This document shows, piece by piece, positions 2,865 through 58,376 of a DNA stretch of 64,000 nt. The notes below the pieces were generated by a model. That model worked only from the letters and a program-made list of their open reading frames with translations, did not search any database and was not told the origin of the DNA. This DNA comes from Schmidtea polychroa (lineage: Eukaryota), in NCBI GenBank assembly GCA_044892525.1, contig CM097885.1:23500001-23564000 (forward strand), in the 5' to 3' direction. The position numbers and the translations under genes are program-made. Numbering within the stretch: the stretch's first letter is position 1; every line of letters begins with the position of its first letter.

Positions 2865-4789
2865 TCTTAAAAAGTGATAAAGAATTTAAAATAGCTGATA
2901 TTAATTGTAACTTGGTATAGAGTTCATGAAATTCATTCATTAAAAGAAATTTGTTTTTAACTTAATATGAAAATTTTTAATTTTAGGTAATCTTTGAAAT
3001 TTTTTGATTCATTTGAAATTATTATAGCAAATGAGTTTTGCAAATATTTGATTTGTAAACAAATAAAATTATCTAACTTAACTAACATAAAATCAAATTT
3101 CTAGATTTTTTGAAAACTTATAATTTTCATATTATTTATTTTTCATTATATAGAAGTGAGCGAGACCTTAACCTAAACTTTTTTCAAACATCTTTGGACT
3201 AAAGAGTTTGTAACTGCAATGAAATCTATTGAAATTAAAATGTACACAAGTAAATTAATTTACTCCCATAAAATATCTTAAGCTCAAACAAGAACTTTCT
3301 ATTTTTGGCCAAAAGTAACTTATATTGAATTTAATTTTACAATAAGTACTGAAATATATTACGTTGTCTAAATCGTTATTTTAAAATCTAGATGATTACT
3401 TCTTTAGGTTCTCAGAAATAACTTTAATCAATAACTTCCTTTTCAAAAAACATTTAAAAAATATACTATTCTAGTTTAATAAACATACTTTGAAATAATA
3501 TTTGTTTGTTACATAATTTTTAAATAAATAAATTGTTTTTCCTCAACTGTTTTTCAACCAATCTTACAATTTACGTCCCCTACTAGTATTTTTATTATGG
3601 AATCAAATTTTCAGTTAATACATAATTTTAACATTAAATTTGTGGATTCAAAATTATGATTTTCTAACTTTTAACACTTTCGACCACAGTCTAGGTTAGA
3701 ATGAGATTTATTGTAGATATGTGACGCACAGTATCAAACTTATTAAGCTTGAAAATAAAACTTAACCAAAAATGTTTTTTCTAAATCAAGGTTCTCAAAC
3801 CTGGGTTCCTTAAAACTTTTAAAGAGTTCTCAGAACATTTTATGCATCCATGACTACATTCAATAAAAATTAAATTTTGAAAATTTGGTTTTAATGAAAC
3901 TTCATATTATCCTAATTAAGTCAAAAGTGGACTCTGTTTGAAATTCCATTGAAAACGGATGCCTAAACTTGTTTCATTAGGAAAATAAAGCTCTTTTAAA
4001 AAATTAGAGTTCCGTTTTATAGATTATAAATTAGATTATTAAAACTAAAACGTTTCTGTAAAATGTATTGTTTCAGTTTTAAATTTGATTTGTAAATATT
4101 TATTTTGCTTCTGAACTGCAAATTTGAAATTCTTTGATTTATTTGAAATTATTATAGCAAATGAAATGAAAAAATTGTTATTTGATTTGTTCTGATTGGC
4201 TGTTTAATTAACCAATGAAGTTAAGATATTGTTCGCGGAAAAAAGTTGTTACCATGGCAAACTGATTTATTTTGAGATATTTGTTTTGAAAATTACAACA
4301 AAGTAAATATGATTAAAAAAGTTATAATGTAAAATATGCTTGATAAAGATATTCCTTACAACACGCTTTAAACTCAAAACTTCCAAATTTAGTACCATGA
4401 AGTGCAAAACATATCCAGCATGTAAGAATTATGTATGCCAAACATCACATCTGGTTGTTAATTTACTTAACCTAATTTACGGAAGATCTTAGTTAATGAA
4501 TTTAATTATCACCATGAACGTCTGTCTGTCTAGAACTGACACTTCGCAATTAGAAATATAGTAAGAACGTTTTTAATCGCTAACAGAAAAAATTCCTATT
4601 GAAGGGTGATATTATGTTTCGAAATCAATGTATGTCTTACTCTTTTGAGCCGATAAAACAATTAAATACCAACCTAATATTTACAGTAATAATTCAATAA
4701 TTGGTTGATACTGCTAAAAGCAACAATTGTCGCCTTTCGGATTCTTTTGGTTTAGGGTTAGGAAACAATTTTCTCCATCAATTTTTGAG

Positions 4790-5121
4790 GAGATTTTTGT
4801 AAGTTAAAAGGTCATTATCTTTTTCAACGATAAAGAGGCAGGCACTGTCTAGTCTCTTCTGACTCATTGTTGATCTTATATGCATCTTCAAATGTCAAAG
4901 CACCAAAAAATTAACGTTTTGATGAAGAATTGATTACGGGAAAAATGAGTGCGAGTTTCATAATCTTTCATAAGCATTGAAATCCACATTTTATCGGGTT
5001 TATGAGTTTTAAGATGTTTTAAGACGTCTTTTTAAGTGCCAAAATTTCAAATGAGAGAGAGGATAGGTTAATGGCATATGACTCGGCGAAGGAATTTAGA
5101 TATTGCTCATTTAAGAAGCAG
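4790..5121 (-). pseudogene. hAT transposase C-terminal (dimerisation domain) fragment, ZMYM1-like hAT type
   Basis: Manual translation gives KLALIFPVINSSSKR*FFGAL / LKMHIRSTMSQKRLDSACLFIVEKD, resembling the hATC consensus LTLPVTSASxERSFS...LRSTMSQxRL, with a stop and a frameshift. Confidence 0.7.
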
Positions 5122-5458
5122 TGTTAGGTTCTGATCAGGTGGATTGATTATTCCTAACACAGATTATATCTGACTACAAAGATATAAATATATATGATTT
5201 AATCAAGACATGAATATGAAAAGCTTTATTAAATATGCACAGATAAAGTATACAAATGCAATAATTGTGTTTCACAAAAAATACCGCTACTTACTATGAA
5301 GGAGAGAATATCGGTTGTTCAAACCGTCCTCAGATATAAGAACCAGATGCTGGATCTAATTGCTCACAGCACTGTATTTAAAGTTAAGGATAAGATAGAG
5401 GGATTACCCGAATTTTACGCGATCGTCTAGATCAAGATTGATTTAGCGTTTCCTAACA
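5122..5458 (-). mobile_element. Probable LTR (TG..CA) with adjacent polypurine tract, inserted into the hAT remnant
   Basis: Starts TGTTAGG (5122) and ends CCTAACA (5458). On the minus strand it is immediately preceded by AAGAGGGACAAT (PPT-like). No TSD found. Confidence 0.5.
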
Positions 5459-6201
5459 ATTGTCCCTCTTAATAAGTTCAAATCCAACGAGGAAGTCAGC
5501 AGAAATGCTACAGATTTTTATAATTTAATAAAATAAATATTCAATTAACCTTTTAGCTAAGAATATTATTTTCTCTTCAGAAGTACTGTAAGCTTATATA
5601 TCTTTTATAGTTCTTTTCTGGAATCTAAAAATTTTCTCTAAGCTAGAATTGCTTGAGCAAAATTGTCTGATTTAATGACTTTCTGTCTTTGCTTAAATAT
5701 CCAATTTTCTGGTGACAGCTGTTCTAAATCTCTTGAACTCTTTTATTGTAATCTTAGCTCGACAGCTGTTTTTTATTCCTATCCCACACTAGAATTGGTT
5801 AATCGATTTTTTTTCTGACAAACTGCTATTTTAATCACTATTGATTCAGCTCAGAACAAATTTATCTTTCCTATGCTATTAATCTAAATTGATTTTTAGC
5901 TGAAGATTATTTTTGCTACTCATTCACAAAAACTTAACCCTATTTATATAAATTTAAATAACTATAAATAATAATTATGGTAATTATATATATATATACT
6001 TATTATAGTATTTATCTAAATATAGTAGTTTGATGATACTATTTTTATTTATAATTTATTTTAAGTTACAAACTATTACTATTATTATATGTATTCTATT
6101 TTTAACAATTATTATTTATCTACTTATTATTTTATTGTTCCTATCGTCCTAGCCTCTATATTGCTAATAAAATTGCTTTTTAAACGAGCCCAACCCCAAC
6201 A

Positions 6202-6560
6202 CATGATAGGATTATTGTCTTCATTAAAGCGGCTTCGCAGTTCCCCTTGTATACGGTCAAGAACTGGATTAAATGCGTGATATTTGTAGCAATCTTTTGG
6301 TTTCATTTAATTATCTACTCTACTATCTGTAGTTAACTTCATGGTGGATCCTTGTAGTTCATATGCAGCCTTCGCTTTTTGTTTATTGGTGTGTGGAACA
6401 TGTTCTGAATCATCAAACACAATGTTCTTAGCTCTCTGGAAAGTTTCCTGGAATTGGCTGTCATTCTTCTGACGTTCTTCTGGTTATATTGGTCAATCCT
6501 GACGTTAATTCGCGCCTGTTTGCGCGTTGGATTCGGAGATGGTGTTTGTGTTTTTATGCG
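6202..6560 (-). pseudogene. hAT transposase middle fragment (same decayed element as 4790-5121)
   Basis: Translation YKYHAFNPVLDRIQGELRSRFNEDNNPIMC resembles the hAT motif YxPxxDxxxxELxxRF. ORF 6339..6563 continues it upstream. Confidence 0.6.
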
Positions 6561-6727
6561 CACACAGACGCGATCAGTGTAATTTTTGTCGAGTTATATC
6601 GAATTTTTAATTTTGTGAGTCAGTTTTTTAATATTTTTAGCTGAAATTTTATGTGAATTTGTCAAGTTTGTTTAAAAGATTGGGAGTTTCTGGAAATTTT
6701 GAAAATAAATTTTTGTAAATTTGTTTA

Positions 6728-7280
6728 ATGGCTATGATTAATACAGATAATTACTATTATCATAAATGCAACAGGGACGTTCACATATCCCAGGATGGTA
6801 AATGTGTGACGTGCAATGATGGATTTATTGAAAGAATTGAATCTGATAACTCAATGGAAAGTGATGATGAAGCCTCATATTCCTGGTGGAAGTACTACAA
6901 ACGAAACTGATGGTTCCTTTTTTATTACTCCAAGAGATCCTGATAACAGAAATAGTGTTTTTGGCCAACTAATATCAAATTTATTTGCTGGATTGCTACC
7001 TCTAGATTTTAAATCAGATTCGTCAGATTACATATTTTCAGATCAAAGTTTCGACAATTTTGTAACGAGAATTATGAATCAATTTGACCAGGATGGTCCT
7101 CCACCAGCAAACGAGGCAGATATTGAGAAATTACAAGTCAAGAAAATCACCGAAGCTAATGATACAGGTTCCATATGTCTGTCAGATTATGAGGTGGCCG
7201 ATGAAGTGTACGAGTTGCCCTGTCAGCATAGATACCATGTTCAGTGTCTAAAAACGTGGTTAATTCAACATATATATTGA
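6728..7280 (+). pseudogene. Intronless RNF115/RNF126-like RING-H2 E3 ubiquitin ligase copy, frameshifted and 3'-truncated
   Basis: N-terminal Zn ribbon (YYYHKCNRDV..CVTCNDGFIERIE) in one frame. DYIFSDQSFDNFVTRIMNQFDQDGPPPA plus RING-H2 (SICLSDY...LPCQHRYHVQCLKTWL) in another. The final CPxC pair is missing and two Zn-ligand cysteines appear substituted. Confidence 0.8.
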
Positions 7281-7751
7281 CATTGTCTTTTACTAAGCCG
7301 ATTGCAGCAAGACCTTTGAATTACATCACCTTTGACAAAGAAAAGGTGACACTTAAAATTTCACGAAAAAAGCACAAATAAGACACATTTATAAACTGTA
7401 TCCCCTCTTTTTGATACCCCACACTAGATAAGATATTTAACAAAGTAGACAATCAAGCCAATCAAAAATATTTTGTGTCCTTACCGTGATCACTTTAATT
7501 GTGCTTACAAAAATTGTTTAATTGCTGTGTTAGATTATTTAAAAAATTAATAAAGTTTTTGATTAAAAATTATATTATTATTAATTTTGTTATTACTCAT
7601 ATGCATTAAGATTGCAGATTGTTCTCTTAGTTTGCGTGAAATTTTTATTTTGTAATGTGTGTAAGTTTTGCTTCCCAGTGTGTGAAAAGTATTTCACAGT
7701 GCGTGTAAATTATATTTCACAATATGCGTGTACATGTAATACTCTCAATTT

Positions 7752-7819
7752 CTATTGGGCGAATACATATTACGCAATTTACAATATATAAAGCAATGTT
7801 TAAAAATATTTCATCACTT
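7752..7819 (+). promoter_or_regulatory. Putative Pol II core promoter (inverted CCAAT, TATA, Inr) upstream of the pPolB leader exons
   Basis: ATTGG at about 7754, TATATAAAG at 7785-7793, and TCACTT at 7814-7819, about 30 nt downstream of the TATA. GCGTG/GTGTG repeats lie upstream. Confidence 0.45.
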
Positions 7820-7948
7820 TTATTATATACCTAAATTTTTAAACTCAACAAAATACCAAGAAATATTCAAGTAAACCAAAACGGAAACGGTGTCAAGAAT
7901 GGTAAGATTTATTTATTTATTTGTCATTATTATTGATATAATTTACAG

Positions 7949-8208
7949 GACTTAATCGAAATTTCAACAAAAGCTCTAACAATAACATTGGAAACATGAC
8001 AAATGGTATTTCATTATTATTATTAAATTTATATTAATTTATTCTTTTTTAGATTTTATTATAAACAACATGAATGGATGCAGCATAAATGGAAGAAACA
8101 TGAACGAAACAATTACAAATAATAATAATAATGATGGTAACAATTTGATTGGGCACAGTAATGCATATGGAAAAAATGATTGCAAAATATCAAAAAGAAA
8201 AGTTAAAT
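7949..8208 (+). CDS. Putative spliced Asn/Gly-rich leader exons (7949-8005, 8053-8208) of the pPolB gene
   Basis: GT-AG introns 7902-7948 and 8006-8052 (47 nt each) and 8209-8952 are all phase 1. The joined exons stay open (MTNDFIINNMNGCSINGRNMNETIT...KISKRKVK-Y-SGDEVMPL) and run into ORF 8970. Confidence 0.5.
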
Positions 8209-8598
8209 GTAAGATTTTATTTTCATTTAAAATTTTTTAATGATTTTATAAGTTTTTATTAAAGGATTTATTAATGTTTTTATTTTAATATTTAATAATC
8301 AATACTTTAAATAAAATAACTGTGATATATTACTTTGAATAATAATAATAATGAACTATTAATAGGTTTAACTATTATGTAACAGGTTAAATTTATTTTT
8401 ATCAATAATTTATTTTGATTTTGTATTAAGTATGTTTAAACTATTATGTAATAGGTTAAATATATTTACAATCAATTTACCTTTTTGATAAAAATATATT
8501 TATATTGTTATTTATTGAAGTAATAATAATAATAATAATAATATTAATAATATCAAAATTATTGTAATAGTTCTTTACATGATGATTGCGATTTCATA

Positions 8599-8827
8599 AT
8601 GGAAAAATATTACAAGCATAGCCATAATCATACCATCTTTTTTATTTGCCCCGTTTGTATGACCCCCGAAATTGTAACATACATCGAGTTTTATCATCAA
8701 CATAGGGATCATTTAACTCAGTATAATTTAAAGAAAAGAGACCTTATTATTTTATTAAAAAATAATATTCCCAATACCTATAATCCCACTATAAATCATA
8801 ATAATGCTACTACAAGTACTAATAATC

Positions 8828-8866
<39 letters not shown>

Positions 8867-8892
8867 TATCTAATGTAAATAATAAAAGATAA
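8599..8892 (+). CDS. Small ORF with CxxC..H..H (zinc-finger-like) motif and Asn-rich tail, inside the predicted pPolB intron
   Basis: FICPVCMTPEIVTYIEFYHQHRDHL; the 3' half is an AAT repeat. Confidence 0.35.
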
Positions 8893-8952
8893 ATTAATTT
8901 ACCTAATCTAAAACCCTTTAAATTTGTTAAAAAGATCTTATTGTTATTTCAG

Positions 8953-11900
8953 ACTCTGGTGATGAGGTCATGCCTTTGATAGTTTACTCTTATTCACTTT
9001 TTTATAATAATAATAATACTTCTATTACATCAACTTCTACAGAAGTCATTATCAATCAACAAGGTGGTTCACTTGAACCTGAAACCATATTCGATTTAAA
9101 TAAAACACATGCTGAAGTTAAAATGGATGTTTCATCCTTAAATTTAAAAACAGTTTCGATCCCAACTCAGTTAATAAATGAATTAAATAAAGTTTCATCT
9201 GAGATGGGTTCAATAAAAATTCAATTTTGTTTGAAAGTGGAATTTGAAAAAGATGAAGAATTTTAATCATTCGTTATTTCAAATTCTGCTAGACCCATGA
9301 GTGATACCTTCTTAGAAGATGGTATTGATTTATTAAATGAAAAAATAATTAAAGTTAATGAAAAAGGAAGCAACTGGGTTATACATAAAATTGAATATAT
9401 TAGTTTTATAATAACAAAATATTCGCAAATACCCAGATTAACTGGCTGTGGATATATTGCTATACCAGAAACATTATTAAATAAAACATGTACTGTTAAT
9501 GTTAAAAATACAAATGATGAATGCTTCCTATATAGTATTTTATCTATTTTGAAATATAATAGTATTAGTACCAATAGATCTAAGCCATATAATTATAATA
9601 CTTCGAAATTAAAATTCGATCCTGCAGATCTCCCTATGCACCTTTGTAATATATCTAAATTTGAATCCCAGAACCCCGGTTTATCGATAAAGGTTTTAAC
9701 TTATAACGAAAATATATTAAATGATGTTAAGAATACTGAAGAAGTTATGAAACATCCTTATGTTGACATAATTTATCGATCTAAAGTTATTAGAGGATAT
9801 CAATTAACTTAATTTTGTTAGAAGATTCTGACACATATCATTACATAGGTGTTACTAATCTTGATAGACTTTTGAATTTTAAAAATTCTAGTGTAACTGC
9901 TGTTACGATTTGTAGTAAATGGTGTCCCAGATGCTTAAATGGTTTTCGAAATCCTAATTCTTTCATGAGACACAAGGGTTTGTGTGATAAAAATCAGTTA
10001 GGGACTACTCTCTTTACATTACCTGAAGATAAATATCTTAGTTTTACAAATTGGTCAAAGATTGTCACTCCTCCATTTGTTATTTATGCCAACTTTGAGG
10101 CAATTTTACCTAAAGATAATAAATACAATCAAAAACATTTACCAATCTCAGCAGGTTTTGTTTTTATAAATAATTTTACAGAGGATAAATTTTATAAAAG
10201 TTTTATAGGATTGGATTGTGTTGAACAGTTTCTTCATGAACTTGAAGAAATTGGGAAGCAAATAGTGGCTCCATATTTTGAAACACGATATAAGAAAATG
10301 ATGTTTTTAATAGTATTGACAAAATAAACTTTTCTTCGGCTGTAAATTGTCATTTGTGTAAGAAAACTTTAGTAAATCCAGTAAGAGATCATGGCCATTT
10401 TTCGGGTAAATATTTAGGTGCAGCATGCTTAACTTGTAATGTTTCTCGAAGAATTAGACCGGTTTTACCATTTATTTTTCATAATTTGAGAGGATATGAT
10501 CTCCATCATATTCTCAAATTTGGCTTAGGTAAATATAAATCATGGAATATTAATTGTATTCCTATAACTAGTGAAAAGTTTTTAAGTTTATATGCAAGAA
10601 TTGACGGATTAACTATAAAATTTATCGATTCTTGTCAATTTATTAACAATTCTTTAAAAAATGCTGTAAAAACATTAACTACATTTCCATTGACTAATTC
10701 TGAATTTAACGGAGTAATTATTAATAGTAAAGGCATATTCCCATATGATTTTGCAACTAGTTTAGAAGTGTTTCAGGCAGCTCCCCAATTACCACTAATT
10801 TGGGATGGTGTTACTGAAGTAGAATATGATATGGTTCAGCGCATTTGGGATGAACATAATTGTAATTCACTTTTGGATTACATGATGATATATTTAAAAT
10901 TAGATGTCTTTTTACTTGCGGATTATTTCCAGCAGTTTAGAGCAAAATCAATAGCTCATAACAGATTGGAACCCTTAAACCTTTTAGGTATTCCCGGTAT
11001 GTCATGGAACTCTGCGCTCATGACTTTAGATCATCCAATTGAGTTGATCCAAGACATGGAGATTTATAATTTCTCTGAGGATGGGATTCGAGGGAAACTA
11101 ACTTTTGTTAATAAACATTACGTAAAATCAGATGAAAACACAGAGTTGCTCTATATAGATATTAACAACCTATATGGTTGGGCACTTAGCCAGAAACTAC
11201 CAGATGGTAACTTTAAGTGGATTAACGATGAAATAAAATTAAATAAAATTTTGGAAGATTGTATGAATTTTGACTTGTAATTACTCACATTCGGTTATAC
11301 TGTTGAAGTGGATTTGGAAATTCCAGAATCAATTCATGATAAGCTTGACGATTTCCCTGTTGCAGCTGAAAAGAGGCGTGCACCAGGATCCAAAGTGGAG
11401 AAGTTGATGCTTACGCACTATCCCAAAAAGAATTATGTAGTTCATTGGAGACTTCTCCAGCTTTATCTAAATATTGGGGTAAAAGTCACTAGGATTCATC
11501 ACGCTGTACAATTTGAACAATCATCAATATTTAAAAACTATATAGATACTGACACACAACTTAAGGCATCATCAACAAAGACACTAGATGAAATTTATTT
11601 TAAACTATTAAACAACAGTCTATACGGTAAGACTGTCGGAAACCTAAAAAAATGAATTAATTTTAGACTTTGCAATTCAGCCCAAAGGATTTTAACATAT
11701 TGTTCTAAACCTAATTTCAAAACAACTACTAAAATCGATGACGACTTAATATCTGTTCTATTAATGAAAGATTTAATATGTTTAAATAGACCAAGTTATA
11801 TTGGTCAATCAGTTTTGGATTTATCAAAACTTCGTATGTACCAACTTCAGTACATTGATTTAAAAAAATATCGCATAGAATAGTTTATGGGGACACAGAT

Positions 11901-12446
11901 TCCTTCTTCTTGGAAATTAAAAATTGCAAATTAAATTCTCTTTTACCAGCAATGAAAAAGGATAATTTATTAGATACCTCTAATTATGAGCCAACACATT
12001 CATTATATTCAAAAAGCAAGAGTCTTGGATATGACGAATTGATATTTTTAAGACCAAAATGTTATAGCATGAAGGGTAGTAAGGGATGTATGAAAGCGAA
12101 GGGGGTCACAATGAAAGATAATGGACTAACTCATCAGTCGTATCTGAATTGTTATAATAATAATGAGATTTATACGGCACCCCAATTTAGGATAACGAGT
12201 AAAAATCATCAACTTTTCAGTATTAAAAATAATAAGAGGGCTTTAACTAATGCTGACGATAAGCGCAATTGGGTACTTAAAAATAAAAGTTATGCGTATG
12301 GTGATTATAGAAGGGGTGGTATGGTTATGGCTGATGATTCTGATGAAAAAATGTTGCTGCCCATAGTTGATCCAGATGAAGATTTGTTATATCATCCTCA
12401 TTTTCAGAATGATGATGGTTGTCAATTAATAAATTTTATGATATAA
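8953..12446 (+). pseudogene. Protein-primed family B DNA polymerase (Polinton/Maverick or adintovirus type), disrupted
   Basis: Motifs in order: YIAIPETL..VNVKNTNDECFLYS; CPRCLNGF..HKGLC Zn finger; PFVIYANFE (Exo I); endonuclease VII-like CHLC..VRDHGHFSGKYLGAACLTCN; FHNLRGYD (Exo II); KGIFPYD; YLKLDV; YIDINNLYG (Pol A); KLLNNSLYGKT (Pol B); YGDTDS at 11886-11903 (Pol C); LRPKCY; KAKGV. In-frame stops at about 9264, 11278 and 11653; frameshifts near 9810, 10330 and 11880. Confidence 0.92.
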
Positions 12447-12597
12447 AAAATTTGTTTTTACTCTATTTTTAAGCGTTACCAAATATTTATTTTGTTAGTG
12501 TTACTTGTGATAGTACACTATTTTTATGTTGTTATAGTATTTTTATTTTACTTGTTATATTCAATCAGTTTTTGGTGAGAAAACTTTTTGTAATTTA

Positions 12598-12963
12598 TTG
12601 AAAGAAACAAGCCCAATTAAGAAAATAACTGAGACGAAGCATATCAAAAATGATGTGAAACCAGTACAAATGTATCATAACCATAAGATATATTTCTTGG
12701 TAGACGAAATTCCATATAAATTCTCAAATGCAGTCAAATTGATCAAGTCACAATATTCAAGTTTCATTGCTCATATAACAAAAGAATATGTTGTTGCAGT
12801 AAATAAAGTGTTGGGGAAAATCAATAAGAGTCTAAGTTGCAATGGAAATATAATCAACAATCGATATTCCCGTTATCATGATGCCTTTGAAGAAATTGAA
12901 TATAAAGATGTCATATCACCCATTTGGAGATTAGATAGTGCTCGAATTTCTCTGCGATTTTAA
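12598..12963 (+). CDS. Hypothetical protein downstream of pPolB, possible accessory gene of the same element
   Basis: 121-aa ORF on the same strand. The stop overlaps AATAAA. No family recognised. Confidence 0.35.
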   Translation: MKETSPIKKITETKHIKNDVKPVQMYHNHKIYFLVDEIPYKFSNAVKLIKSQYSSFIAHITKEYVVAVNKVLGKINKSLSCNGNIINNRYSRYHDAFEEIEYKDVISPIWRLDSARISLRF

Positions 12964-13373
12964 TAAATGTTTAGTTTTTAATCTCTTAATATAATTTTTT
13001 ACTATCAGAATGAGTTTTCTTAAGTATAGATGAATTTGTATTTTTGTATGGCTTTTCATTTCCTAGAATTCGGTCGATTTTTAAAAAATTAAATCATAAC
13101 TTCTCATTCACGCTTTTACAACTAGATAAATATTGATTTTTCACGCAATTATTCAATAATAGAAAATTTATTAGCACTATCATGATACAATATTTTAAGA
13201 CGTTCAATTTACAAATCTAAATAAATACGATCATCAATTCATAAATATATCCTAATAATTTTTCATAATTAGTTTCTTGTTACATTACAATTAAAACGAA
13301 TCCATTATGTACAAAGGCCGTAAGAAGTTTAATTCGATATTTCAAGCAAACAATTGAAACAACAAACCAATGC

Positions 13374-56739: not shown

Positions 56740-58376
56740 CCGTATATTTCGGCGTATAAGGCGACCGTCAGATAAGACGAGGTACAAAATTAGAGCAAAT
56801 TTTTATGATTTATCATATATCGGTTGTATAAGACGACTGCTAAATAACGAAGAGATTGCAACACCCGGTATCTTATGAAATATTGGTTATGTAAAGATGA
56901 TTTATTAGTATAGATTCAGTATCGATTGGTATAGATTGTGGTCATTTTATTATTAAACCCATATCAGGAATGGAACCGCCAACAAAAAGAAGAAAATATG
57001 AGGCAAGTTTCAAGTTGAAAGTCGTAGACGTAGCCAAGGTTTCGAAGAACTGCGCTGCTGCAAGACAATTTGATGTTACTGAAAAGATGGTACGAGAATG
57101 GAGAAAGAAGGAGGATGATATAAGACAAATGCCCAAAAACAAATGTGCAATGCGGCGAGGAATCACATGTTGGTCAAAATTGGAAGACAACGTTGCAGAA
57201 TGGGTACTCCAGCAGAGACAAGATGGCTACATTGTGACCAGAAATAAAATAAGATCTTATGCTTTGAAATGGGCCAAGGCAAACAAAGAAGAAAGTAAAG
57301 ACTTCAAAGCTACAGTGGGATGGTGCAGTAGGTTTATGAACAGAAGAAATTTAGTAATAAGAGAAAAAACAAAAATCGCTGAGAAACTACCAAAAGATCT
57401 CGAGCACAAAATAACAAACTTCCACCATTTCATAATTCAGCTAAGGAAAAGGCATAAATTTCCATTATCCCATATCGGAAATATGGATGAAACTCCAATG
57501 AATTTTGACATGCTTGGTAATAAAACAGTGAAAAGTACAGGACACGAGAAGACAAGATTTACAGTGGTATTAGGGTGCATGGCAGATGGTACTAAATTGA
57601 AACCAATGGTTATCTTTAAACGTAAAACAAAACCTAAAATAACTTTTCCTCCTGGTGTTTTGGTTCACTTCCACGAGAAAGGGTGGATGGACGAGAATGG
57701 TGTAAAGTTATGGATTGAAAATATTTGGAACAGACGGCCAGGTGGTATGCGAAAGGAACGCAGTTTGTTGGTCTGGGATATGTTTCGGAGCCATATAACG
57801 GCTAATTCTAAAACTCGTTTAGCGCGGTTATCCCAGGTGGTTTAACTTCTGTACTTTAGCCGCTTGACGTAAGCTTAAATTAGCCATTCAAGGATAATGC
57901 TAGAGCACAATGGAATGAGTGGATGATGAATGGTGAAAAGTCATTTACAAAAAACGGAGCTATGCGTGATGCCTCACTTGATGTTCTTTGCGAGTTTGTT
58001 ATAAAAGCATGGGATAATGTTAAGGTAGAAAGTGTCATAAAATCCTTTAAAAAATGTGGAATATCTAATGCCATGGATGGTAGTGAGGATGATTTATTGT
58101 ATGAAGATGAAGCCCAAGTCGACTTGCCAGAACCAGAATGGAATCCCTACAATGATGACATCTGTGATGAATCTCGTGATGTATTCGAAAAAATTTTCGA
58201 AACAGACGGTGATGATGGTGATGAATTTGATGGGTTTTAGATATGCATAAAAGTAGTATAAATACAACTTACCTGTACTTTAATACTTTCTTTTATATTG
58301 GTTGTATAAGACGACCCACAATTTTCAAGGGTGATTTTTTGACTTTAAGGGTCGTCTTATACGCCGAAATATACGG
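56740..58376 (+). mobile_element. pogo-family (Tc1/mariner superfamily) DNA transposon, near full length
   Basis: TA TSD and TIR CCGTATATTTCGGCGTATAAG(G/A)CGACC at both ends. Internal TATAAGACGAC subterminal repeats. Confidence 0.96.
56970..58240 (+). pseudogene. pogo transposase (Brinker-type HTH, CENP-B HTH, DDE_1), disrupted near the catalytic region
   Basis: YEASFKLKVV..AARQF..VREWRK; FKATVGWCSRFMNR; NMDETP; LVWDMFRSH; a frameshift at IPGGLTSVL*PLDV; KAWD..KSFKKCGI; acidic tail. Confidence 0.93.

What the first reader, a model, noticed from the sequence alone, without database searches (positions are those of the whole stretch)
6570..13000. Virus-like gene block: RING E3 ligase, zinc-finger ORF, pPolB and orphan ORF on one strand
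Seen: an intronless RNF115/RNF126-like copy, about 270 nt of further decayed coding-like sequence ending at AATAAA (about 7550), the pPolB unit, and a 121-aa orphan ORF. All are on the + strand and tightly packed, and they begin where a hAT remnant is cut off at about 6560. Inference: a fragment of an endogenous Polinton-like virus that captured a host ubiquitin ligase, a common anti-host module in DNA viruses. Caveat: no integrase, capsid, ATPase, protease or TIR is visible here, so membership of the RING gene in the element is unproven.
Basis: partly seen in the sequence, partly recalled or inferred. Interest (0 to 1): 0.7.

Follow-up and report, generated by a model that had tools for sequence, protein, structure and literature searches.

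The report
Broken Polinton patchwork beside amplified RNF126
This is a broken piece of a virus-like Polinton transposon lying next to a dead copy of the host ubiquitin-ligase gene RNF126, and the two were likely joined by local rearrangement rather than travelling as one element, although the ligase copy appears to belong to an unexpectedly amplified family.

Summary
All listed pieces exist and all are broken. The RING copy (6728-7271) is 91-92% identical to a flatworm-type RNF115/126 protein but is frameshifted, lacks two zinc cysteines and is cut short. The 'zinc-finger ORF' is the N-terminus of pPolB. The 'orphan' resembles an accessory gene of a related Polinton (L008).

Contigs of four public runs suggest a patchwork. 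Another RING copy continues normally at 7271, a sister Polinton contig has other sequence upstream of 7467, and the RING-side junction is held by only two contigs per DNA run, at flank-like depth. The AATAAA at 7549 lies in the Polinton piece. No TIR, TSD, integrase, capsid or ATPase was found, and 0 of 86 related pPolB loci carry a RING (weak test).

Best reading (0.55): a separately amplified RNF126 copy was joined to a Polinton fragment here. True Polinton cargo stays open (about 0.38). The surprise is that RNF126-like DNA appears to have at least about 40 genomic copies, with an unknown carrier.

The parts
6090..6554 (-). Remnant of another repeat, hAT-like by a recalled motif only; homology to other copies appears to end near 6554
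   Evidence: no Pfam hit
6555..6727 (+). T/G-rich leader-like linker in front of the RING ATG, repeated at modest depth; no TIR
6728..7271 (+). Intron-free RNF115/RNF126/Iruka-type pseudogene (zinc ribbon plus RING-H2): frameshift near 6875, two zinc-ligand Cys lost, truncated at 7271; member of an apparently high-copy family
7272..7466 (.). 195-nt stretch of unknown origin joining the RING copy to the Polinton piece; the RING-side junction is held by two contigs per DNA run
   Evidence: tables 3, 8; no Pfam hit in the four frames tested, no Rfam hit
7467..7795 (+). Left end of the Polinton-derived piece: AATAAA at 7549 (likely the poly(A) signal of a lost upstream element gene), then a promoter-like stretch with TATATAAA near 7785
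   Evidence: (X7 record 17 bridges 7467-8068)
7796..8208 (+). Probable spliced leader of pPolB: GT-AG introns 7902-7948 and 8006-8052 (47 nt each), exons of 57 and 156 nt open only in the phase-1 frame, third donor at 8209; the link to the main exon cannot be assigned
   Evidence: no RNA proof
8551..8889 (+). C2H2-like zinc-binding N-terminal domain of pPolB (the 'zinc-finger ORF')
   Evidence: matches P0030 aa 99-171 (E 0.007) and the first domain of pPolB loci L001 and L012; 29 of 69 long relatives have a C2H2-like pattern in the first 250 aa
8931..12446 (+). Decayed protein-primed DNA polymerase B with an endonuclease-VII-like insert near 10340-10445; several stops and frameshifts
12670..12963 (+). 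97-codon gene weakly homologous, end to end, to a 116-aa accessory gene next to the TBP-like gene of Polinton locus L008; probably joined to the pPolB piece near 12555-12568
12964..13048 (.). Right end of repeated DNA; unique flank from about 13049; no TIR or TSD
   Evidence: (X5 record 16, last bin)

Best explanation
The block is an inactive stretch holding a broken Polinton-type polymerase gene and a broken RNF126 copy, which were likely brought together at this one locus by insertion and deletion rather than moving as one element. SHOWN: 7467-12555 is a repeated, decayed pPolB unit whose N-terminus is the zinc-finger ORF. The RING copy is a non-functional, intron-free derivative of a flatworm-type RNF126. 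Other copies of the RING, Polinton and orphan pieces continue into different sequence at 7271, 7467 and 12555/12568. INFERRED: the mini-exons at 7796-8208 were the spliced pPolB leader. The orphan is an accessory gene of the same or a more abundant Polinton family. RNF126-like DNA was amplified to at least about 40 copies by a separate carrier, most likely RNA-based capture into a retroelement. A break-repair event cut the RING copy at 7271 and joined it through 195 nt of filler to the Polinton fragment. All pieces have since decayed by about 3-4%.
For:: (1) At 7283 only two contigs lie in X1 (together 354; flank contigs 181-209) and two in X5 (together 77; flank contigs 31-37). One X5 contig reaches 64 letters either side, so it bridges 7271. 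(2) An X8 contig leaves the window at 7271 and goes on for 225 letters that begin as the C-terminus of P0001. (3) X7 record 17 matches 7467-8068 and then runs on for 379 unlike letters, and it is not among the contigs over 7175. Contigs over 7493 reach only 27 letters in X1, X7 and X8, which fits an edge at 7467. (4) X7 record 24 has 156 unlike letters before 12568, and four X1 loose ends after 12555 carry AATAAA and an A run. (5) None of the 27 joint rows shown (15 in table 5, 12 in table 5c; 243 and 89 more not shown) links 6728-7271 to the Polinton body. The RING copy differs from P0001 at 16 of 181 residues, as expected from 3.5-4% neutral DNA decay, so its source was nearly identical to P0001. 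In L008 the orphan's relative lies 7 kb from pPolB on the other strand. No RING in 0 of 86 related loci.
Against: One replacement event in a RING-carrying Polinton explains the same junction with fewer steps, and internal deletions with filler are common among sister copies (8 of 12 rows table 5c lie within the Polinton body). RING and Polinton pieces show similar decay (8 of 10 listed X7/X8 pieces 2.7-3.9%, two 5.3-5.9%). All pieces share one strand. The RING's 5' linker has contig depths of the same order as the Polinton's non-coding parts (6624: X1 3161, X5 723; 7720: X1 17080, X5 1691). The orphan, a probable Polinton gene, is about as deep as the RING, so higher depth does not exclude Polinton membership. 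The 0-of-86 test has little power: those loci are only about 30-60% alike in protein, only 17 of 86 reach far enough upstream, and none of the 17 is among the twelve closest. Contig depth is not a copy number, and the carrier of the RING family was not seen.
Confidence: 0.55

Rival explanations
1. One reading: this Polinton subfamily carries a recently captured RNF126 upstream of pPolB, and this copy lost the RING C-terminus and the following 280 or more bases in one deletion filled by 195 nt of foreign DNA. The ligase would serve to redirect host ubiquitination.
For: Same strand and similar decay. Linker depth is of the same order as Polinton non-coding DNA. Deletions with filler are frequent in sister copies (table 5c). 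Host-control genes typically lie upstream of PolB in adintoviruses (PMC8502044 section 3.2).
Against: The junction is held at flank-like depth only. A sister contig's 379 upstream letters do not reach the RING domain, and no shown joint links RING to the body. RING contigs are much deeper than this subfamily's in X7 (44.5 against 4.75-15.2). 0 of 86 related loci carry a RING (weak).
Confidence: 0.25
2. RING and orphan both belong to a second, more abundant Polinton family, and the block is a recombinant between two Polinton families.
For: RING and orphan bins have similar summed depth in X1 (382-387k against 205-367k) and X5 (66-72k against 32-55k). The orphan resembles a Polinton gene.
Against: L008, which holds the orphan's relative with TBP, ATPase and integrase genes, has no RING in 12.9 kb. 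RING exceeds orphan about 15-fold in X8 (X8 may be RNA). Near identity to the host-type protein argues for a recent capture, not an old shared module.
Confidence: 0.13
3. The RING copy is a one-off processed pseudogene of a single host gene that landed beside a Polinton relic.
For: Intron-free and near-identical to P0001. S. mediterranea lists one RNF126 transcript (PMC8807557 supplement).
Against: No poly(A) tail or TSD. The AATAAA belongs to the Polinton piece. 27 contigs averaging about 3,500 depth cover 7175 in X5 against 31-37 for unique flanks, which points to many genomic copies.
Confidence: 0.05
4. The junctions are assembly chimeras.
For: Repeat-rich region; no laid piece spans the whole stretch.
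Against: The RING-side junction is bridged by an X5 contig (study P2) and covered in X1 (study P1). X1 contigs are identical to the window at 3800-5149 and 6093-6501.
Confidence: 0.02

Closest known systems
Polintons/Mavericks of animals (adintoviruses; Starrett et al. 2021, PMC8502044, sections 3.1-3.2 read; Arkhipova and Yushenova 2019, PMC6431247, passages read)
   Same: Protein-primed PolB (PF03175). The closest long relative, L008, has rve integrase, A32-type ATPase and TBP-like genes by Pfam, plus capsid-like and protease-like ORFs (labels recalled, no Pfam hit for the capsid-like ones). It shares the accessory ORF.
   Different: Only a 5.6-kb broken fragment here, with no integrase, ATPase, protease, capsid, TIR or TSD. 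A probable spliced leader precedes pPolB. The accessory gene lies behind pPolB on the same strand. 'RING' does not occur in the main text of PMC8502044 (supplements not read).
pPolB with inserted HNH-type nuclease (nematode and oomycete pPolB2; Jeong et al., bioRxiv 10.1101/2023.08.22.554363, passages read; Krupovic et al. 2024, PMC11161782, one passage read)
   Same: An endonuclease-VII/HNH-like insert in pPolB: weak in the window (PF02945 E 0.028), present in 8 of 9 long relatives scanned.
   Different: Whether it is the same insert at the same site was not tested. The host here is probably a flatworm.
RNF115/RNF126/Iruka E3 ubiquitin ligases
   Same: N-terminal zinc ribbon plus C-terminal RING-H2. 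The best named relatives of P0001 are trematode proteins.
   Different: This copy is frameshifted, lacks two zinc ligands and the last Cys pair, and appears to be one of many genomic copies.
Mobile elements that carry host genes: Maverick cargo in nematodes (Widen et al., bioRxiv 10.1101/2022.07.12.499685, search listing and start of abstract only), planarian Burro retroelements (PMC6431247 passages), LTR-mediated mRNA capture (recalled)
   Same: An intron-free host gene copy in repeated DNA.
   Different: The carrier is not identified here, and linkage to the Polinton is seen only through a near-private junction.

Membership tests
Polinton/Maverick (complete element) | Protein-primed DNA polymerase B | tested here: met
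   PF03175 E 6.2e-26; 7810 relatives at E<=0.001, best 47-57% identical; the gene is broken
Polinton/Maverick (complete element) | rve integrase | tested here: not met
   L008 integrase finds nothing in the 64-kb window (tblastn)
Polinton/Maverick (complete element) | Packaging ATPase, cysteine protease, major and minor capsid genes | tested here: not met
   None of 2084 ORFs from 86 related loci hits the window outside 8550-12450 at E<=1e-3; the only ATPase match is the myosin P-loop (E 0.16)
Polinton/Maverick (complete element) | Terminal inverted repeats and 6-bp target-site duplication | tested here: not met
   Longest inverted or direct match between the block's edges is 8-9 nt of AT-rich sequence; no AGTAGT-type end (motif recalled) at the edges. 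Filed as a fragment derived from such an element, not as an element.
Adintovirus PolB (Alpha or Beta class) | N-terminal OTU-like domain; PF03175-type (Alpha) or divergent (Beta) | tested here: inconclusive
   9267-9809 matches 67 of 150 relatives but no OTU Pfam model. The window piece hits PF03175 while 0 of 9 long relatives and L008 do.
RNF115/RNF126/Iruka family | N-terminal zinc ribbon plus C-terminal RING-H2 | tested here: met
RNF115/RNF126/Iruka family | Intact frame and complete zinc ligands (functional ligase) | tested here: not met
   Frameshift near 6875; 2 of 10 covered ligands lost; cut before the last Cys pair
Processed pseudogene | Loss of the parent's introns | tested here: inconclusive
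   No introns over residues 1-189, but the parent's gene structure is unknown because no genome is held
Processed pseudogene | Poly(A) tail and target-site duplication | tested here: not met
   Longest A run 6 nt; best flank repeat is a 10-nt AT-rich match inside the linker; the 3' end is cut off
Polinton cargo gene | Recurs inside the element's ends in independent copies | not testable with these tools
   No genome held. Contigs show a near-private junction. 0 of 86 distant loci carry it (low power).

The most novel reading that the evidence does not exclude
A planarian Polinton lineage recently captured a full-length, intron-free copy of the host ligase RNF126 and spread it to dozens or hundreds of genomic sites, in an element whose polymerase also carries host-style spliceosomal introns. 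This would be a virus-like transposon caught while acquiring a host ubiquitin ligase, and this locus a deleted copy of it.
Probability: 0.36. Interest if true: 0.6.

Novelty: new member of a known kind. Interest (0 to 1): 0.32.

Why it matters
As a locus it is dead DNA, and decayed Polintons are common. Two things have wider value. First, RNF126-like DNA seems to be present in at least about 40 copies. Whatever carries it, this would confound RNAi, qPCR and read mapping of the planarian rnf126 gene, and it marks a recent, dateable capture of a whole host ubiquitin ligase by a mobile element. I found no paper on it (0 papers held at least 4 of planarian, RNF115, RNF126, RING, transposon; RNF126 is absent from the main text of the planarian RING screen). 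Second, the locus adds another Polinton family with a probable spliced pPolB leader. If the carrier proves to be the Polinton, it would give a direct case for studying how integrating DNA viruses acquire anti-host genes.

Tried and rejected

RNA and cover. No RNA holder was listed. X8 is RNA only by a guess, and its pieces over the leader are unspliced, so it says nothing on expression or splicing. X7 has no cover at 7309-7466; this is recorded here only. Ratios of X1 to X5 depth were considered as a family fingerprint and dropped, because unitig fragmentation differs between runs.

RING searches. Scans for relatives found nothing in metagenome contigs. The alignment A1 was too loose to scan with. 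No RING match or pattern in 150 pPolB relatives.

Orphan searches. No homologue among 2 candidates, in viral contigs, in Pfam or in the Atlas (best 0.89; the L008 relative 0.86 with a poor model). tblastn missed the L008 match at E 0.05; it shows (E 4e-6 pairwise, 0.0043 among 2084 ORFs, 1 of 5000 shuffles), so it is a weak homology that I first noticed by eye.

pPolB searches. The single-sequence scan of viral contigs and the PDB search were empty.

Other tests. A crude intron-motif count was not significant (986 of 3000 shuffles reach it). The chain test written afterwards gave 0 of 5000, and 3 of 254 window tiles, two of them inside the pPolB ORF. An early idea that 7272-7300 is an intron remnant of the RING gene was dropped, because another copy continues without a gap. 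Rfam gave two chance-level hits. Sequence look-ups in earlier findings were empty, as were. No LTR, Helitron or Burro signature was recognised at the edges by eye. No fold or complex job was run.

Full report
SETTING. The window is AT-rich animal DNA. The block lies between a myosin gene that starts near 2865 on the minus strand (first intron 49 nt) and an ASH1L-like region (SET, AWS, bromo, PHD, BAH). A planarian host is inferred from the trematode relatives of the RING protein and from earlier unchecked notes on this genome; no call names the species. No genome is held, so linkage was tested with contigs of four public runs and with related loci.

RING COPY. 6728-7271 aligns without introns to residues 1-189 of P0001, a 220-aa protein with zinc ribbon and RING-H2 (45/49 and 120/132 identities; Pfam). 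P0001 belongs with RNF115/RNF126/Iruka; its best named relatives among 23 hits are trematode proteins (40 and 43% over alignment A1). Whether P0001 is the host gene or an intact family member is unknown. S. mediterranea lists one RNF126 transcript (PMC8807557, supplement rows seen). The window copy is dead: about 23 nt are deleted with a frameshift, 2 of 10 covered zinc ligands are lost, and it stops before the last Cys pair. Its 16 differences in 181 residues fit 3.5-4% neutral DNA decay. No poly(A) tail or TSD was found.

POLYMERASE. 8551-12446 is one broken pPolB (PF03175 E 6.2e-26; collinear with full-length relatives). The zinc-finger ORF matches the first domain of relatives (P0030, E 0.007; L012 and L001, E 5e-4 and 0.004). 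In L001, L002, L004 and L007 a similar Cys/His-rich region opens the pPolB frame itself (seen by eye). A C2H2-like pattern occurs in the first 250 residues of 29 of 69 long relatives, a few of which are probably false matches. Upstream lie a TATA-like box near 7785, two 47-nt GT-AG introns and a third donor. Both inner exons are multiples of three and open only in the phase-1 frame. A test written after seeing this pattern gave 0 of 5000 resamples and 3 of 254 window tiles; a cruder test was not significant. One sister contig bridges 7467-8068, so the leader belongs to the Polinton piece. Splicing is inferred, not shown. Earlier notes describe such leaders in other Polinton families of this genome.

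ORPHAN. From the ATG at 12670 it aligns end to end, start methionine included, with a 116-aa ORF of L008 (23% identity, E 4e-6; best of 2084 ORFs, 1 of 5000 shuffles). L008 is a 12.9-kb Polinton relative with pPolB, rve integrase, A32-type ATPase and TBP-like genes. There the ORF lies beside TBP, 7 kb from pPolB and on the other strand. Its function stays unassigned.

LINKAGE. X1 is identical to the window at 3800-5149 and 6093-6501, with contig depth 181-209; X5 flank contigs have 31-37. From about 6350 to 13050 the summed depth rises by orders of magnitude, and it falls to 163 in X1 after 13051. So the block is made of repeats and ends near 13048 without a TIR. Three inner edges appear. At 7271 an X8 contig goes on as the P0001 C-terminus, while the window turns to other sequence; at 7283 only two contigs lie in X1 (354 together) and two in X5 (77), as expected for two alleles of one locus, and one X5 contig bridges the edge. 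At 7467 a 1002-nt X7 contig leaves the window with 379 unlike letters and does not cover 7175. At 12555-12568 four X1 loose ends carry a poly(A) signal, and an X7 contig has 156 unlike letters before the orphan. None of the 27 joint rows shown links RING to the Polinton body, but 243 and 89 rows are hidden.

COPY NUMBER. The tool warns that summed contig depth is no copy number, so this is a bound of my own. A base lies in at most 31 words, so copies are at least sum/(31 x unit depth). At 7175 this gives 84 in X1 and 87 in X5, or about 40 if the unit depth is that of one allele. In X5 the 27 contigs there average about 3,500, against 31-37 for flanks. In X7 single contigs give 44.5 for RING, 18 for the orphan and 4.75-15.2 for this Polinton subfamily. 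RNF126-like DNA thus appears amplified, and more so than this subfamily. This assumes X1 and X5 are DNA runs, which their even flank cover suggests but their records do not state.

WEIGHING. For a patchwork (0.55): three inner edges, a near-private RING junction, deeper RING contigs, near identity to the host-type protein, and a different position of the orphan's relative in L008. For cargo in this subfamily (0.25) or in a second Polinton family (0.13): one strand, equal decay, linker depth of the same order as Polinton non-coding DNA, frequent deletions with filler in sister copies, and the known habit of adintoviruses to keep host-control genes upstream of PolB (PMC8502044 section 3.2). The absence of RING from 0 of 86 related loci weighs little, because only 17 reach far enough upstream and they are distant. 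Under the best reading the carrier of the RING family is most likely RNA-based; unchecked notes on BEL/Pao LTRs with host mRNA pieces in this genome offer a candidate that I could not test.

COMPARISON AND VERDICT. It works like any decayed Polinton relic, that is, not at all. It fails the tests for a complete Polinton (no integrase, ATPase, protease, capsid, TIR or TSD) and is filed as a fragment derived from one. Papers seen: PMC8502044 (passages, sections 3.1 and 3.2; supplements not read, and their gene maps may bear on RING cargo), PMC6431247, PMC8532177, PMC11161782, PMC11410931 and bioRxiv 10.1101/2023.08.22.554363 (passages; its supplements are closed), PMC8807557 (passages and a supplement search), bioRxiv 10.1101/2022.07.12.499685 (listing only). 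New member of a known kind, interest 0.32. The lead worth following is the carrier of the amplified RNF126.

Noticed in passing
L008:371-12938: A 12.9-kb metagenome Polinton relative with pPolB facing protease-like, capsid-like (labels recalled), rve integrase, A32-type ATPase and TBP-like (PF00352, E 2.3e-17) genes. So TBP-bearing Polintons also occur outside this genome.
   Followed up: partly
L010:105-822 and L012:399-952: The Cys/His-rich first domain lies in a separate ORF 200-300 nt upstream of the main pPolB frame, whereas it is in frame in L001, L002, L004 and L007; this may be an intron in close relatives.
   Followed up: no
P0029-P0052 (pPolB relatives): An endonuclease-VII-like insert (PF02945) in 8 of 9 long relatives and in L008; an HNH insert was described as unique to nematode and oomycete pPolB2, so it may be more widespread.
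   Followed up: partly
window:13983-25780 (-): ASH1L-like gene with a single 1172-codon open stretch (SET, AWS, bromo, PHD, BAH), plus 656- and 294-codon stretches without Pfam hits (the 294-codon one was not scanned).
   Followed up: no
window:22196-22624 (-) and 56901-58240 (+): A hAT dimerisation-domain remnant (E 2.9e-9) and a broken pogo/Tigger-type transposase (BrkDBD, HTH_Tnp_Tc5, DDE_1).
   Followed up: no
window:8380-8510: An imperfect inverted self-match (72% over 136 nt) in the stretch behind the third splice donor; other copies show a 46-nt tandem repeat there.
   Followed up: no
window:5076-6032: Further repeated DNA left of the block (raised depth) with no Pfam hit in the two frames tested.
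   Followed up: partly
window:27226-27775: Tandem repeat of 235-nt units, 2.4 copies, 83% alike.
   Followed up: no
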